Origin: Spirochaetia bacterium
Lineage (GTDB): Bacteria > Spirochaetota > Spirochaetia > SZUA-6 > Bin103
NCBI GenBank assembly: GCA_965203905.1
Contig: CBDBDQ010000005.1
Location: forward strand, 4,960,001-5,024,000
Direction of reading: 5' to 3'
Length of the DNA: 64,000 nucleotides
Positions within the stretch are counted from its first letter, which is position 1; the number at the start of each line of letters is the position of its first letter. The position numbers and the translations under genes are program-made. Below the pieces are notes generated by a model. That model saw only the letters and a list, made by a program, of their open reading frames with translations. It ran no database searches and was not told where the DNA came from. Shown here piece after piece: positions 18,232 through 22,535 of this stretch.

Positions 18232-19542
18232 CTATTCGGCGAGCGAGCGGTCTATCTCTTCCTTGGCCCGCGCCAGGGTGTCCCGAATGTCGCCATCGGA
18301 GAGCAGGATCTCCTGCATAGCCCTCTTGAGCGGCTCGGACACGTCCGCGTATTTCTGGTAGTTGGCCAGCGGTATCGAATACCCCAGCAGCTCTTCCCAG
18401 AGCGCGGACTGCGGAATGGTCTTCGCGCCTTCGGTTTCCGACCACCCGGCACGGGGAATGGTGTCGCCAGTTTCCAGGAGATTGCGCGACGGGAACGAGG
18501 TGAGGAAATCAGCCAGCTTCCACGCCTCTGCCTTGTGCTCGCTGGTGCTCGAGACCACCCATGCCCAGCTCGTGGTCGAGATCGGCGGGTCGGCCCCCTG
18601 ATAGGTGGGGTAGGGTATCGCGTGGAAGGTCCCGGGCGCGACATCGTGTTGCCTGGTCCAGCGCGGCGGTCCCCACTGCCCCGTGACTGCCATCGAGATG
18701 TTGCCGGTGGGAATCGTCGACACGTGGAAGTCCGAAGCCGAGGCCAAGTCCTTGTCGGCCAGGCCATCGTCGAAGCGGCGCTTTATCTCCTCCATGGCGC
18801 CCACTACGGCGTCGCTGGTGATCAGAGACTCGCTCTGATCGGCGTTGAGGATGGAGCCGCCGCGGGCACGTACGATGGGCTCCAGCTCCAGCAGGTACCA
18901 GGCAGCGGACAGCGCGAAGGGAAACGACAGCGCCTCGCGCGTGATCCTGCCGCTGGCGTCCTTCTGCACCAGCTTCTGCCCGACCTCGTACACGTCCTCC
19001 CAGTACCGGGGGGCATCTCCCTCGGGATCCAGGCCCGCGTCCCGGAAGTGCTCGGTGTTGATCGAGTACGAGTAGATGTTGAACTGCCAGGGTATGCCAT
19101 AGTAATTGTCGCCGATCTGATACGCCTCCAGCACGCCTCCCGCCCACTGCTGCTTCAGCCCGTCGAGCGACGAGACGCCAAACTGCTCCAGCGCCGCGCC
19201 GTCTATCGGTGCCATGGCGCCGTTCTCGTGGTACGTGAACAACTGGCGATAGGTCATGGCGAACAGATCGGGCGCGTCGCCGGTGGCGATGGCGGTGGGC
19301 AGCTTCTGATTCATGTAGATCTCGTGCTGCGAGTTGTCCATCTGCACCCTGATGTTGGGGTTCTCGGCTTCGAACTCGCTGAGATACTCCTTGAAGAGAA
19401 CGTTCTGCGGACCGCCCTCCTCCATGTGGTTCCACCACACCAGCGACACCTGCTGAGCCGCTGCCTCTTCCTGTGCTGCGCCAAACACCGAGGCCGCAGC
19501 CGAGAACAAGGCCAGCCCTGCCAGTACACACAAGAGTCTCAT
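18232..19542 (-). CDS. Sugar ABC transporter substrate-binding protein
   Basis: Signal peptide, 'FEAENPNI.V', 'G.APDL', 'YYGIP'; AGGAGG RBS; upstream of two CUT1 permeases. Confidence 0.9.
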   Translation of the reverse strand: MRLLCVLAGLALFSAAASVFGAAQEEAAAQQVSLVWWNHMEEGGPQNVLFKEYLSEFEAENPNIRVQMDNSQHEIYMNQKLPTAIATGDAPDLFAMTYRQLFTYHENGAMAPIDGAALEQFGVSSLDGLKQQWAGGVLEAYQIGDNYYGIPWQFNIYSYSINTEHFRDAGLDPEGDAPRYWEDVYEVGQKLVQKDASGRITREALSFPFALSAAWYLLELEPIVRARGGSILNADQSESLITSDAVVGAMEEIKRRFDDGLADKDLASASDFHVSTIPTGNISMAVTGQWGPPRWTRQHDVAPGTFHAIPYPTYQGADPPISTTSWAWVVSSTSEHKAEAWKLADFLTSFPSRNLLETGDTIPRAGWSETEGAKTIPQSALWEELLGYSIPLANYQKYADVSEPLKRAMQEILLSDGDIRDTLARAKEEIDRSLAE

Positions 19543-19736
19543 AGCCCCTCCTGCACAATCGCAGCCGGCCACTGGGTCCGGCTGAACGACACGAAGCGAG
19601 TCACTCGCCCGAGCGACTTACGCCTTGGAACCTTCGACTATGGCTCCGAGGTGCGGACCTGTCAAGCTCACCCCCCGGGCCGGGACGGACCGGAGTTGGC
19701 ATGGGAGAAACAGGGCTGCAAGCCTATACTGGGGGT

Positions 19737-19925
19737 TAGTCTTCGAGGGAGCGCGAAGTAGGCCGGCGATGCACTGGTGTAGCGCCCTGCGGCGAACCCG
19801 TTGTCAAGCTTGGTCCCGAGGCCCGTGGCGTTGTCATTGGTGAGGCTCAGCCCGCGACCGGTTGCGGTGGTGATCCATCCCGATAAGGAGAATGCGCAGT
19901 TGCTTCACGCCTTGGCCGCTCCACT
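19737..19925 (+). ncRNA. Candidate IS110 bridge RNA
   Basis: -10 TATACT at 19725-19730; several hairpins; TAAGGAGAA (19884-19892) equals the predicted circle junction; GGTGATC (19869-19875) is complementary to the right target flank. Ends approximate. Confidence 0.6.
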
Positions 19926-19942
19926 CATTCCCAGGAGGAGTC

Positions 19943-21337
19943 ATGGCACGACGCAAACGCAGAAGCAAACGCAGCGGCAAGGGCAATCGCTCGGCGCAGC
20001 CGCAGGTGGTGCACCCCGAGGCGGCAGGCCTGGATGTGGGCGCCACCATGATCTACGCGGCGGTACGCGCTGAGCGCGCCGAGCAGCCGATCCAATCGTT
20101 CCCGACCTTTACCCGCGATCTGCATGCCTTGGCCGATTGGCTGAGTACCTGCCAGGTAACCACGGTGGCCATGGAGTCGACCGGCGTGTACTGGATCCCG
20201 GTGCACCAGATCCTGGAAGCACGCGGCTTCGAGGTGGTGCTGGTCAACGCTCGCCACGTGCGCTCGGTGCCCGGTCGCAAGAGCGACGTCGAGGACTGCG
20301 AATGGCTGCGTTGCCTGCACTCGGTAGGGTTTCTGCGCGGCTCGTTCCGACCGGCTGACGAGGTATGTGCGGTGCGCTCCTTGTTGCGCCATCGCGACAG
20401 CGTGATCAAGACCGCCTCCCGCAGCGTACTGCACATGCAGAAGGCGTTCGATCAGATGAACGTCCATCTGCACCACGCGATCTCCGATCTGACCGGGCTC
20501 AGCGGCCTGGCCATCACCGACGCCATCCTGGACGGAGAGCGCGACCCGACGCGCTTGGCGAAGCTGGCGCACCCGCGGATCAAGGCCAGCCGTGCCACCC
20601 TGATCAAGGCTCTGGAGGGTGATTGGCGCAGCGAACATCTGTTCACCTTGCGCCACGCACGCCAGACCTATGCGCACTACCAGCAGCTCATCAGTGAGTG
20701 TGACCAGGAGATCATGGCCCGCATCCGCGCGTTCGAGCAGACCCAGGAGCCGCCCGCCGCGACCGCTACCGACCAGCAACCGCCGGAATCCCCTGAACCG
20801 GGCCCGGAACCGCCTGCGTCGCCTCCGCAAGCGTGCAACATGAAAGCCCACCTGACGCGGTTGTTCGGCACCGACCTGACCCTCATTCCCGGTATCGGCG
20901 ACACTACCGCGCTGGTGCTGTTCAGCGAACTCGGCCCCGATCTGTCACGCTTTCCGAGCGCCGCGCAGTTCGCATCCTGGTTGAACCTCTGTCCGCAGAA
21001 CAAGATCACCGGCGGCAAGGTGATCAGCTCTCAGACGGGGCCCGGCGCCAACCGTGCGGCACAGGCGCTGCGCATGGCAACCCAGACCCTGTACCGCAGC
21101 CACTCCGCGCTCGGTGACTTCTTCCGCCGCAAGCGGGCCCGCGTCGGCTCCCCGCAGGCGATTACCGACACCGCCCACAAGCTGGCGCGCATCATCTACC
21201 ACCTGGTGACCCGCCACGTCCTCTACGATGACAACGTTCTGCTCCAGCAACAGCGCCAGGACCGTAAACGCCATGAACGGCGACTTCGAAATCAGGCCCG
21301 CGCTCTCGGCTTCAAACTCGTTCCGGAGGCTGCCTGA
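19943..21337 (+). CDS. IS110 family transposase/recombinase
   Basis: DEDD RuvC-like motifs 'GLDVG', 'AMESTGVYW', 'RKSDVED'; Tnp domain 'LIPGIG', 'FASWLNLCP...ITGGK'; AGGAGG RBS. Confidence 0.93.
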   Translation: MARRKRRSKRSGKGNRSAQPQVVHPEAAGLDVGATMIYAAVRAERAEQPIQSFPTFTRDLHALADWLSTCQVTTVAMESTGVYWIPVHQILEARGFEVVLVNARHVRSVPGRKSDVEDCEWLRCLHSVGFLRGSFRPADEVCAVRSLLRHRDSVIKTASRSVLHMQKAFDQMNVHLHHAISDLTGLSGLAITDAILDGERDPTRLAKLAHPRIKASRATLIKALEGDWRSEHLFTLRHARQTYAHYQQLISECDQEIMARIRAFEQTQEPPAATATDQQPPESPEPGPEPPASPPQACNMKAHLTRLFGTDLTLIPGIGDTTALVLFSELGPDLSRFPSAAQFASWLNLCPQNKITGGKVISSQTGPGANRAAQALRMATQTLYRSHSALGDFFRRKRARVGSPQAITDTAHKLARIIYHLVTRHVLYDDNVLLQQQRQDRKRHERRLRNQARALGFKLVPEAA

Positions 21338-21434
21338 ATGCTTGGTTTCTAAGGAGATCATCGGGCCGGAGCCGGACCTGGCCGGACCGGACGGTCCGGG
21401 CTGCCCCGCAGGCCCATACGCCAACTGATTGCAG

Positions 21435-22535
21435 TCAGGCGGACCCGCGGAGGAGCCGTGCTGCCGCCACCTCGTTCTTGAGCTTCGTGTAGACCTCGTC
21501 GATGCCGACCTCCGCCGCCGAGCCGGGGGCAAAGCCGCAGTCGGGGTTCAGGGTGATGCGCTCGGCGGGTACGTGGCGCAGGGCCTGCTCGACACGACTG
21601 ACGATCTCCTGAGGGGAGTCCACCTGCCCCGGGGCCACGCTGACACAGCCGAGGCCGATCTCCAGGTCCTCGCGCAGTTGGCGCAGCACCTCCACGTCAC
21701 CCGCCTGGGGTGCCGTGAACTCCATCGTCAGGTGCTGCACTCGTAGCCGGTTCAACTGGCCGACGATGGGCCCGTAGCCGCCGCTGAACGCCTCCTCTCC
21801 GCGCGCCCGTGCGCCCGCTCGCCGGCACAGGTGCACGGCGGTGCGGATCCCTGCGATGCCATCCACTACCTCGTTCACCGTGTCGACCGCGAAGTCCGCC
21901 GCGCGATCGGCGTCGTAGTACCCGGCGCGCACCCCGGGGTCCACGAACAGGCACAGATGTGGATCGTCGATCTGGGCGATGTCGGCACCGGCGTCGCGGA
22001 TCAGCTCCAGCTCGCGGCGGAGGATGGGAACGCAATCACGAACGAATGCCTCGCGCGTGGGGTACGCGGGCGCGGACAGCTCGGGGTCCCACATCCGTTC
22101 TCCCAGCAACGCGGGTGCCGGGAGCGTGGCCTTGACCTGGCGGTCGGTGATGCCGCGCAGGAACGAGATCTCTCTGGCGATGAACCCTGGTTCCCTGGGC
22201 GCCAGGCGGTCGACGACTACGGTCCAGGGACGCCCGTCGGCGGGGTTGGTGCCGAGCTCGAAGCCGTGAGCCAGCTCGGCAATCACGCCGATATACGAAC
22301 GGCGCCGCCACTCGCCGTCAGTCACCACGTCGAGACCGGCGTGCTCCTGCAGGCGCACGATGTAGCCGACGGCGGCGTCCATCGCCCGCCGGTACTCATC
22401 CGGGTCCAGAGCCTCCTCGGCGCCGAGCAGATCGCGTACGAACCCGGACCGTGGCATCGAACCGACCACTGAGGTCGTGAAGCGGCCGTGGCCGCTGCTC
22501 GGGCTGCCGGCGCCGGCGCCGGTGTCGCTGCTCAT
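21435..22535 (-). CDS. Cobalamin-independent methionine synthase II family (single catalytic domain)
   Basis: 'TSVVGSMPR', 'GLDVVTDGEWRR', Zn ligands 'HLC', 'MEF', 'NPDCGF'. Confidence 0.85.
   Translation of the reverse strand: MSSDTGAGAGSPSSGHGRFTTSVVGSMPRSGFVRDLLGAEEALDPDEYRRAMDAAVGYIVRLQEHAGLDVVTDGEWRRRSYIGVIAELAHGFELGTNPADGRPWTVVVDRLAPREPGFIAREISFLRGITDRQVKATLPAPALLGERMWDPELSAPAYPTREAFVRDCVPILRRELELIRDAGADIAQIDDPHLCLFVDPGVRAGYYDADRAADFAVDTVNEVVDGIAGIRTAVHLCRRAGARARGEEAFSGGYGPIVGQLNRLRVQHLTMEFTAPQAGDVEVLRQLREDLEIGLGCVSVAPGQVDSPQEIVSRVEQALRHVPAERITLNPDCGFAPGSAAEVGIDEVYTKLKNEVAAARLLRGSA

What the first reader, a model, noticed from the sequence alone, without database searches (positions are those of the whole stretch)
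19704..21362. IS110 element with a readable candidate bridge RNA: guides match its own junction and its insertion site
Seen: GGAGA flanks both ends, so the predicted circle junction is GTTTCTAAGGAGAAAC and the empty site is ..CATGGGAGATCATC.. . The ~235-bp left end has a -10 box (TATACT 19725) followed by about 190 nt of hairpin-rich sequence. In it, TAAGGAGAA (19884-19892) is identical to the junction, TTGCTTC (19900-19906) can pair with the right donor arm GAAACAG (one mismatch, one wobble), and GGTGATC (19869-19875) can pair with the right target flank GATCATC (one wobble). TTGGTGAG (19837-19844) ends in the same GAG core, one hairpin upstream. Known: IS110 recombinases such as IS621 use a bridge RNA with target- and donor-binding loops. 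Inference: this is a programmable recombinase of a different subfamily with a GAG-type core. The left target guide matches the current site poorly.
Basis: partly seen in the sequence, partly recalled or inferred. Interest (0 to 1): 0.8.

Follow-up and report, generated by a model that had tools for sequence, protein, structure and literature searches.

The report
IS110 element with permuted bridge RNA
This is an active IS110-family insertion sequence whose upstream non-coding RNA carries two short guides, one copying its 7-base insertion site and one copying its own right end, so it is a real RNA-guided recombinase, but with different ends and guides from those first proposed.

Summary
There is a real IS110-family element here, but its ends are 19667-21356, not 19704-21362. 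Five identical copies lie in this genome. The seven bases before it, TGTCAAG (19660-19666), are host target, not element. They vary among near-identical copies in relatives, are missing from RE-LE tandem junctions, and stand in IS-free orthologous loci.

The left end encodes a two-module RNA (19748-19922) whose helices covary. UGUCAAG (19802-19808) copies the target. UAAGGAG (19884-19890) copies the right end. Both end in a shared AG core. Across 16 distinct guides, 73 of 80 non-core positions match the element's own target; shuffled pairings give 26.1 ± 5.5, and 0 of 100,000 shuffles reach 73.

The GGAGA "repeat", circle junction, empty site and GAG core are wrong.

Both left guides sit on the 3' strand of their loops, opposite to IS621. 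Right flanks are unconstrained, and I found no right guides.

The same architecture recurs in Acidobacteriota, Bacteroidota and proteobacterial plasmids. No direct RNA or circle evidence exists. I class it as a new variant of a known kind, of moderate interest.

The parts
19660..19666 (+). Host target half-site TGTCAAG (5 nt plus AG core). It is the reverse complement of C+TTGACA.
   Evidence: It is shared by all 5 copies. It varies among near-identical copies in G014, G020 and G004. It is absent from the RE|LE tandem junctions L105, L066, L070 and L014. It is present at the same place in the IS-free orthologous loci L087-L089.
19667..21356 (+). IS110-family insertion sequence proper (1690 bp), with no target duplication and no terminal inverted repeat beyond about CTC/GAG.
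19667..19942 (+). Left end (276 nt non-coding).
   Evidence: The ORF starts at ATG 19943 behind GGAGGAG. Homologues start with MARR.
19675..19693 (+). Conserved palindrome or hairpin near the left terminus (CC.GG...CC.GG).
   Evidence: The RNAalifold pairs are invariant in 11 sequences. Its function is unknown.
19706..19711 (+). AGAAAC, the left arm of a sub-terminal inverted repeat.
   Evidence: It is the inverse of GTTTCT at 21345-21350. By eye the pair is conserved and extends to 7-9 bp in relatives.
19725..19730 (+). TATACT, a -10-like box. It is conserved as TAnnnT in 11 relatives.
   Evidence: alignment. No -35 lies at 16-18 nt, and the scan did not call it.
19748..19922 (+). Structured core of the candidate bridge RNA, closed by helix P1 (19748-55 with 19916-22).
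   Evidence: All 7 P1 pairs change on both sides in 23 sequences. Model R1 gives 182.9 bits here.
19761..19815 (+). Module 1, the target-binding loop. It comprises P2 (19761-65 with 19811-15), the 5' loop strand GAUGCAC (19768-74) and the P3 hairpin (19775-19800).
   Evidence: In one search, P2 has 4 pairs and P3 has 1 pair with changes on both sides.
19802..19808 (+). Left target guide UGUCAAG. It has the same sense as the target top strand and lies on the 3' strand of loop 1.
   Evidence: It is identical to 19660-66. It covaries with the target in 16 distinct guides.
19816..19915 (+). Module 2, the donor-binding loop. It comprises P4 (19816-22 with 19909-15, plus 19825-27 with 19906-08), the 5' loop strand GCGUUGUCAU (19828-37), P6 (19838-45 with 19875-82) and a variable hairpin.
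   Evidence: P4 has 10 of 10 pairs and P6 has 3 of 7 pairs with changes on both sides.
19884..19890 (+). Left donor guide UAAGGAG. It has the same sense as the right-end top strand and lies on the 3' strand of loop 2.
   Evidence: It is identical to 21350-56. It equals the right end 7/7 in 14 of 16 lineages, across the variants TAAGGAG, TTAGGAG, TCAGGAG and TTAAGAG.
19943..21337 (+). DEDD recombinase gene (464 aa).
   Evidence: D31, E78, D115 and D118 are invariant in 18 homologues.
21338..21356 (+). Right end (19 nt). It holds GTTTCT (21345-50) and the donor left arm plus core TAAGGAG (21350-56).

Best explanation
Window 19667-21356 is a recently active IS110-family insertion sequence. Its 276-nt left end encodes a bridge-type guide RNA of about 175 nt (structured core 19748-19922), built of two homologous stem-loop modules.

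In module 1 the 3' strand of the internal loop is UGUCAAG (19802-08). [quoted passage not shown] In module 2 the 3' strand is UAAGGAG (19884-90). [quoted passage not shown]

The DEDD recombinase would then exchange strands just after the shared AG. This joins target-AG to the left end (CTCACC...) and right end-AG to whatever follows the target.

What is shown:
- the ends;
- the target;
- the guide/target and guide/end covariation;
- the conserved, covarying RNA fold;
- recombination at AG|.

What is inferred by analogy with IS621:
- that the guides act as RNA;
- that the RNA is bound by the recombinase;
- a circular intermediate;
- the chemistry.
For: 1. Ends and activity. There are 5 identical 1697-bp copies with no target duplication and unrelated flanks.

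2. TGTCAAG is target, not element.
- Of 20 G020 copies, 17 carry TGTCAAG, 1 AGTCAAG and 2 TGCCAAG.
- All 14 G004 sites carry TCAAGAG, which matches that lineage's guide.
- The G014 copies carry AGTAAAG, TGCAAAG and TGTAAAG twice.
- The natural RE|LE junctions read GGAG|CT... without these bases.
- The IS-free orthologous loci in G003, G014 and G013 read ...TGTCAAG at the insertion point.

3. Guide covariation.
- I compared 22 lineages with 16 distinct target guides.
- 73 of 80 non-core positions match the lineage's own target, against a shuffled mean of 26.1 (sd 5.5). 0 of 100,000 shuffles reach 73.
- 49 of 62 sites match 7/7, 10 have one mismatch and 3 have more.
- The donor guide equals the right end in 14 of 16 lineages.

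4. RNA fold.
- On 23 sequences from four phyla, 92.2% of cells pair, against 76.0% when shuffled.
- 31 of 44 pairs change on both sides, against 9-16 of 44 when the partners are slid by 1-3 columns.

5. The guide-coding DNA is itself used as a target. The right end GGAG is joined to CTTGGTCCC..., the bases just after the internal guide, in L065 (G014), in L096 (G020) and in one contig of run X19.

6. The protein passes the NCBIfam model named 'IS110 family RNA-guided transposase' and keeps the DEDD residues.
Against: - There is no direct evidence of the RNA. Contigs from two RNA libraries cover 19773-20050 of a close relative, but such libraries can hold DNA and contigs show no ends.
- The whole left end does not fold better than shuffled sequence (z +1.93).
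- Nothing in Rfam matches it.
- No sigma-70-like promoter was called on the + strand.
- No circle junction was seen. The one raw-read run laid no reads.
- No right target or right donor guides were found, although IS621 has them.
- L013 and L014b each have one donor-guide mismatch. L066 has three target mismatches and L017 two.
- The residue aligned to the IS621 nucleophile Ser is Thr here.
- The alignments used for pair counts were fitted to the model, which favours the structure.
Confidence: 0.85

Rival explanations
1. The element runs 19704-21362 and is flanked by GGAGA. It has a GAG core and the guides TAAGGAGAA, TTGCTTC, GGTGATC and TTGGTGAG.
For: The quoted strings are in the sequence. 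TAAGGAG does match the right end.
Against: All five copies share 19660-19703 as well. Relatives show the left end at 19667. The right flanks of the other copies do not fit GGTGATC. TTGGTGAG is invariant while the ends vary.
Confidence: 0.01
2. A canonical IS621-like bridge RNA with four guides. Under this reading, right target and right donor guides exist (for example the 5' loop strands 19768-74 and 19828-37) and I failed to see them because they are short or tolerate mismatches.
For: - The 5' loop strands sit where a right guide would be if the loop is read as a circular permutation of the IS621 loop.
- GGCGAUGC (19765-72) is perfectly complementary to the 8 bases right of copy L003.
- In G020 the first two right-flank bases are G in 9 of 16 and A in 7 of 16. 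This fits the complement of UC in that lineage's strand GCGUCAC (by-eye count).
Against: - The other 4 copies with the same RNA have unrelated right flanks.
- G004 has the same 5' strand as G020 but prefers C at +1 (9 of 14).
- Neither 5' strand contains CU to pair with the AG core.
- The module-2 strand does not change with the left-end sequence across lineages.
- One 8-mer hit among about 6 x 270 comparisons is expected about 0.025 times, so it is suggestive only.
Confidence: 0.25
3. The internal copies of the target and of the right end act as DNA or protein-binding sites (relics of nested insertions, or recombinase-binding sites), not as RNA guides.
For: There are no RNA data. The internal TGTCAAG DNA is demonstrably a recombination site (L065, L096, X19).
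Against: - Both segments sit in loops of a fold whose helices covary across four phyla.
- They change together with the target or the end while the surrounding sequence stays constant.
- A relic would not track the target in 16 lineages.
- The family's solved member, IS621, uses exactly such RNA guides (PMC11208160 and PMC11208158, passages read).
Confidence: 0.05

Closest known systems
IS621 / IS622 bridge RNA recombinases (IS110 group; Durrant et al. 2024, PMC11208160; Hiraizumi et al. 2024, PMC11208158; passages read)
   Same: - DEDD plus Tnp-domain recombinase.
- Long left end that encodes the RNA, and a short right end.
- Two internal loops, one for the target and one for the donor.
- Left guides with the sense of the top strand, 7-9 nt including a dinucleotide core shared by target and donor.
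- No target duplication.
   Different: - The recombinase is only remotely alike (E 1.5e-6, Tnp domain only; 464 against 326-328 aa).
- The core is AG, not CT.
- The left guides are on the 3' strand of each loop, whereas the papers place them on the 5' side.
- No right guides or handshake guides were found.
- The target is 7 bp, on the left only, against 11-14 bp.
- No promoter spans the RE-LE junction.
- The sub-terminal repeat is 6-9 bp, and its left arm lies 39 nt in from the end.
seekRNAs of IS1111-type elements (ISEc11, ISPa11, ISKpn4; Siddiquee et al. 2024, PMC11187229; passages read)
   Same: The bottom-strand match lies 3' within the RNA. The paper reports the order as top-strand complement first, then bottom-strand match. 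Sub-terminal inverted repeats are present.
   Different: - The non-coding region here lies upstream of the gene, which is the IS110-type position.
- No top-strand complement was identified.
- The inverted repeat is short and placed asymmetrically.
ISEc21 (IS110-type seekRNA, same paper)
   Same: The non-coding region lies upstream of the recombinase gene.
   Different: The paper reports the bottom-strand match 5' of the top-strand match in ISEc21. That is the opposite order to what the position of the guides implies here.

Membership tests
IS110 family (DEDD recombinase insertion sequences) | Recombinase with a DEDD_Tnp_IS110 domain and a Transposase_20 domain | tested here: met
   PF01548 E 5.5e-19 and PF02371 E 6.7e-14. 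NF033542 scores 240.3 bits against a cutoff of 140.
IS110 family (DEDD recombinase insertion sequences) | Catalytic D-E-D-D residues and a hydroxyl nucleophile in the Tnp domain | tested here: inconclusive
   D31, E78, D115 and D118 are invariant in 18 homologues. Assigning them to the catalytic residues is inference. The position aligned to the Ser of IS621 'YESG' is Thr here. Among the 18 homologues it is Thr in 8 and Ser in 10.
IS110 family (DEDD recombinase insertion sequences) | No terminal inverted repeats, no target duplication, sequence-specific insertion | tested here: met
   5 copies here, plus 20 in G020 and 14 in G004, show no duplication and a fixed 7-bp left target.
IS110 group (as opposed to IS1111 group) | Long left end, short right end, non-coding RNA upstream of the gene | tested here: met
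   The left end is 276 nt and the right end 19 nt. The RNA model hits lie upstream of the gene in all loci.
IS621-type bridge RNA | Two internal loops in a conserved, covarying fold | tested here: met
   31 of 44 pairs change on both sides, and 0 of 500 shuffles reach the observed values.
IS621-type bridge RNA | Left target guide and left donor guide match the target and the donor end, and share a core | tested here: met
   The core is AG in 20 lineages. By eye, it is AA in the two proteobacterial elements.
IS621-type bridge RNA | Left guides on the 5' strand of each loop and right guides on the 3' strand | tested here: not met
   The donor guide lies between P6 and the 3' strand of P4, and both helices covary. 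The target guide lies 6 nt before P4.
IS621-type bridge RNA | Right target and right donor guides and handshake guides complementary to the top strand | tested here: inconclusive
   None were found by inspecting. Right flanks are unconstrained in 16 (G020) and 14 (G004) sites. There is one 8-nt complement, at copy L003 only.
IS621-type bridge RNA | RNA is made and bound by the recombinase; a circular donor with abutted ends exists | not testable with these tools
   There are only contigs from RNA libraries, which are not proof of transcription, and tandem junctions in relatives.
IS1111 group | Non-coding region downstream of the gene; sub-terminal inverted repeats of 7-17 bp | tested here: not met
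   The RNA is upstream of the gene. An AGAAAC/GTTTCT repeat of 6-9 bp exists but is asymmetric, lying 39 nt in from the left end and 6 nt in from the right end.

The most novel reading that the evidence does not exclude
A large clade of about 450-aa IS110 recombinases uses a circularly permuted bridge RNA encoded in the left end. The clade was seen here in relatives from Acidobacteriota, Bacteroidota, Cyanobacteria and proteobacterial plasmids. This RNA reads only the left half of target and donor, 5 nt plus a 2-nt core. The result is a minimal 7-bp, one-sided specificity. Because the guide-coding DNA is itself a perfect target, these elements regularly recombine with their own guide region. 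That produces tandem arrays and 5'-truncated, guide-less copies, which is a built-in form of self-limitation.
Probability: 0.35. Interest if true: 0.65.

Novelty: new variant of a known kind. Interest (0 to 1): 0.5.

Why it matters
Bridge and seek RNAs were described in 2024 from a few enterobacterial and pseudomonad elements. This element adds a well-resolved natural example from a distant branch: 16 natural "reprogrammings" of the target guide and four or more of the donor guide.

It shows that the two-loop plan can be wired with the left guides on the other strand of each loop. It also suggests that a 7-bp, left-only target may suffice in nature.

That bears on how the RNA is held by the recombinase, on the evolution of the IS110 and IS1111 arrangements, and on off-target "half-match" behaviour.

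For annotation, it gives exact ends and a covariance model for a widespread, poorly annotated IS clade. It is not a new principle.

Tried and rejected
- Rfam at E <= 10 found only two chance hits.
- The single-sequence fold of the left end is not more stable than shuffles (z +1.93; 196 of 200 shuffles fold at least as well).
- I found no empty site for the window's own copy. Only the right-hand gene is conserved in G001, G004 and G006, with different upstream DNA.
- For copy L003 the left flank through TGTCAAG is conserved in three IS-free genomes. The sequence to the right diverges after 3 bases, so this is only a partial empty site.
- Model R1 found nothing in 150 other genomes of the class when the stricter filters were on.
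- Right guides:
  - I compared the 5' loop strands, the linker 19891-19905 and GGUGAG with right flanks and left-end starts across lineages.
  - No consistent register or covariation emerged.
  - The module-2 5' strand resembles the left-end motif TTGGCA (19696-19701) in several lineages, but not strictly. This is unexplained.
- The target resembles a -35 box. With a strict TAnnnT at spacer 16-18, 0 of 5 occupied sites pass, against 11.6% of 275 free sites. The scan tool calls one such promoter, at the window copy.
- The single-strand DNA fold of a natural RE|LE junction (L105) pairs the sub-terminal repeats but is not unusually stable (z -0.83).
- Raw-read run X22 laid 0 reads, so it gives no test of a circle junction.
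No earlier findings were used.
- Supplementary data of Durrant et al. 2024 could not be seen. They may already list this clade's RNA.
- Literature searches and passages read in six papers found no description of a left-end-encoded RNA with this guide order. That is not proof that none is in print.
-, a Pfam scan of flanking reading frames, failed because of stop codons. It was a side issue and I dropped it.
Full report
**What is at the coordinates.**
- The ORF 19943-21337 (464 aa) carries PF01548 (DEDD_Tnp_IS110) and PF02371.
- It scores 240 bits against NCBIfam NF033542, 'IS110 family RNA-guided transposase', whose cutoff is 140.
- It aligns to the solved IS621 recombinase only weakly, E 1.5e-6, mainly in the Tnp domain.
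- Homologues are very numerous: 7,999 of 8,000 scored candidates reach E <= 1e-10, many of 450-465 aa.
- In 18 aligned homologues D31, E78, D115 and D118 are invariant.
- The residue aligned to the Ser of IS621 'YESG' is Thr here. Among those 18 homologues it is Thr in 8 and Ser in 10. Equating it with the nucleophile S241 is my inference.

**True ends.**
- A DNA search of the window's own genome found five 100% identical copies plus a 525-bp 3' fragment.
- The shared stretch is 19660-21356, 1697 bp. The flanks are unrelated and there is no target duplication.
- In relatives at 75-90% identity, the first seven shared bases behave as target, not as element, on three grounds:
  - They vary among otherwise near-identical copies. 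G020 has 17 TGTCAAG, 1 AGTCAAG and 2 TGCCAAG of 20. G014 has AGTAAAG, TGCAAAG and TGTAAAG twice. G004 has 14 of 14 TCAAGAG.
  - Natural head-to-tail junctions read ...GGAG|CT... without them: L105 in G004, L066, L070 and L014.
  - The left flank of copy L003 is conserved in three genomes that lack the IS there, and each reads ...TGTCAAG exactly up to the insertion point.
- The element proper is therefore 19667-21356. The target is TGTCAAG. Recombination occurs just after AG.

**The guides.**
- TGTCAAG recurs inside the left end at 19802-19808, in the same sense.
- The right end's last seven bases, TAAGGAG, recur at 19884-19890.
- Both internal words change with their partners in relatives.
- The internal/target pairs are:
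  - AGTCAAG/AGTCAAG (L061);
  - TGTGAAG/TGTGAAG (L006);
  - AATCAAG/AATCAAG (L009);
  - TCAAGAG/TCAAGAG (G004);
  - TAAGAAG/TAAGAAG (L112);
  - GTCGTAG and ATCGTAG (Vicinamibacterales L023, L019, L022);
  - TGTTTAG and AACTCAG (Bacteroidota L015, L021).
- One-base misfits occur in L070, L070b, L014a, L014b and L016. L017 has two misfits and L066 three.
- The table covers 22 lineages with 16 distinct guides. In it, 73 of 80 non-core positions match the lineage's own target. Shuffled pairings give 26.1 ± 5.5, and 0 of 100,000 shuffles reach 73.
- Of 62 sites, 49 match 7/7, 10 have one mismatch and 3 have more.
- The donor guide equals the right end in 14 of 16 lineages. The exceptions are L013 and L014b.
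- I compiled the table by hand from the outputs named above.
- Both guides always end in the same dinucleotide. It is AG in these lineages. By eye, it is AA in the two proteobacterial plasmid elements, which I read but did not add to the test. That dinucleotide is the core.

**The RNA fold.**
- RNAalifold on 11 relatives gave two homologous modules inside a closing helix.
- Covariance models R1 and R2 were built.
- R2 also recognises elements of Vicinamibacterales, Bacteroidota, a Citrobacter freundii plasmid and Dinoroseobacter shibae pDSHI01.
- On 23 sequences:
  - 92.2% of cells pair, against 76.0% when shuffled;
  - 31 of 44 pairs change on both sides, against 9-16 of 44 when the partners are slid by 1-3 columns;
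  - 0 of 500 shuffles reach any of the five measures.
- Support differs by helix. P1, P4 and P6 are well supported. P2 has four supported pairs and P3 one. Two short helices inside loop 2 are weak (75-80% paired) and are probably not real.
- These alignments were fitted to the model, which favours the structure.
- Each module reads, 5' to 3':
  - closing helix;
  - a loop strand of 7-10 nt ending in CA(Y);
  - UGGUG...hairpin...CCCG;
  - the left guide ending in the core;
  - closing helix.
- P4 and P6 both covary, so the donor guide is firmly on the 3' strand of its loop. The target guide ends 7 nt before P4.
- Siddiquee et al. report the order seen here, with the bottom-strand match 3', for IS1111-type seekRNAs. 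They report the opposite order for the IS110-type ISEc21 (PMC11187229, passages).
- This element therefore combines the IS110-type position of the RNA with the IS1111-type order. Topologically it is a circular permutation of the IS621 loop.

**What was not found.**
- Right flanks are not conserved, by my by-eye counts.
  - Among the 5 identical copies here they are unrelated.
  - Among 16 G020 sites, +1 is G in 9 and +2 is A in 7.
  - Among 14 G004 sites, +1 is C in 9.
- No segment is consistently complementary to the core plus the right flank, or to the core plus the left-end start.
- GGCGAUGC (19765-72) is complementary to the 8 bases right of copy L003. No other copy fits, so I treat this as suggestive only.
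- GGUGAG (19839-44) could pair with CTCACC at the left end. However, it is invariant while the left end varies.
- The first base after the target guide's core equals the first base of the left end in every lineage read, including the one lineage with T. The second base does not follow this rule.

**Expression.**
- TATACT (19725-30) is conserved as TAnnnT in relatives. No -35 lies at 16-18 nt, and the scan called no + strand promoter.
- Two metatranscriptome runs hold contigs of a close relative (90-95% alike). One is a 287-nt contig over 19773-20050.
- Such libraries may hold DNA, and contigs show no ends. Transcription is therefore not shown.

**Self-targeting.**
- The DNA that encodes the target guide is a perfect target.
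- Three independent records join a right end ...GGAG to CTTGGTCCC..., the bases that follow the internal guide:
  - L065 in G014;
  - L096 in G020;
  - a contig of run X19, with the joint at 21337 to 19807 and 16 right-end letters between.
- L010 in this genome is a copy that begins exactly at that point.
- These junctions independently place the exchange after AG.

**Comparison and novelty.**
- The element works like IS621-type bridge recombinases and belongs to the IS110 family.
- It fails the IS621-specific features of guide strand order and demonstrable right guides.
- Three literature searches and passages from six papers showed no description of this arrangement.
- I could not see supplementary tables, and Durrant et al. 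state that they predicted RNAs for 85.7% of IS110s. The clade may therefore already be in their data.
- I rate it a new variant of a known kind, of moderate interest.

Noticed in passing
window 19637-19666, - strand: The 7-bp target is the reverse complement of C+TTGACA. The only promoter-like site the scan called in 19600-21450 uses it as the -35 box (TTGACA, spacer 17, CATAGT) and points at the leftward ORF 18232-19572. The IS therefore sits just upstream of a likely host promoter and leaves it intact. At copy L005 the other strand reads CTTGACA-N17-ATAATA, then AGGAGG, then ATG.
   Followed up: partly
L065 (G014), L096 (G020), L010 (G000:C5:5833537), contig of run X19: The right end, or a flank, is joined exactly after the internal guide word (..AG|CTTGG..). 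In other words, the element recombines with its own guide-coding DNA. This gives 5'-truncated copies that lack the promoter region and module 1.
   Followed up: partly
L105 (G004:C4), L066, L070, L014: These loci hold head-to-tail tandem elements with the junction GGAG|CT... In two unrelated genomes (L014b, L070b), a lineage whose target guide is CUAGGAG sits directly behind the TTAGGAG right end of another family member, as if it targets relatives' ends.
   Followed up: partly
L014, L019, L022, L023 (Vicinamibacterales), left flanks: Four related elements lie in near-identical contexts. Read on the other strand, the flank translates to YDVTALIGEGGMGQVYQA. By recall, that looks like the glycine-rich loop of Ser/Thr protein kinases. 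The target may be a repeated gene-family motif. I did not test this with a family search.
   Followed up: no
L113 (Citrobacter freundii plasmid NZ_CP086288.1), L114 (Dinoroseobacter shibae pDSHI01): These proteobacterial relatives (43-44% identity) have the same two-module RNA but an AA core. Their guides are UAAAAAA and their targets are ..ATATTAAAAAA and ..ATCCTAAAAAA. By recall, the flank resembles the end of IS3-family orfA with its slippery A-run. The Pfam test failed.
   Followed up: partly
window 19706-19711 and 21345-21350: There is a sub-terminal inverted repeat, AGAAAC/GTTTCT, extended to 7-9 bp with matching changes in several relatives. It is placed asymmetrically: the left arm lies 39 nt in from the left end, beyond a conserved palindrome at 19675-19693. 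A single-strand DNA fold of a natural junction pairs the arms but is not unusually stable.
   Followed up: partly
window 19696-19701 and 19831-19836: The left-end motif TTGGCA and the 5' strand of loop 2 (UUGUCA) are similar, in the same sense, in several lineages. This includes a shared one-base length change in Vicinamibacterales (TTTGATCA against UUUGGUCA). The match is not strict, and it is unexplained.
   Followed up: no
window 20996-21004 (protein residues about 352-354): The residue aligned to the catalytic Ser of IS621 is Thr in this element and its closest relatives, and Ser in more distant ones.
   Followed up: partly
G000 whole genome: TGTCAAG occurs 280 times on both strands, against about 471 expected from base composition. 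Five occurrences are occupied by this IS, and five are the internal guide-coding copies.
   Followed up: yes
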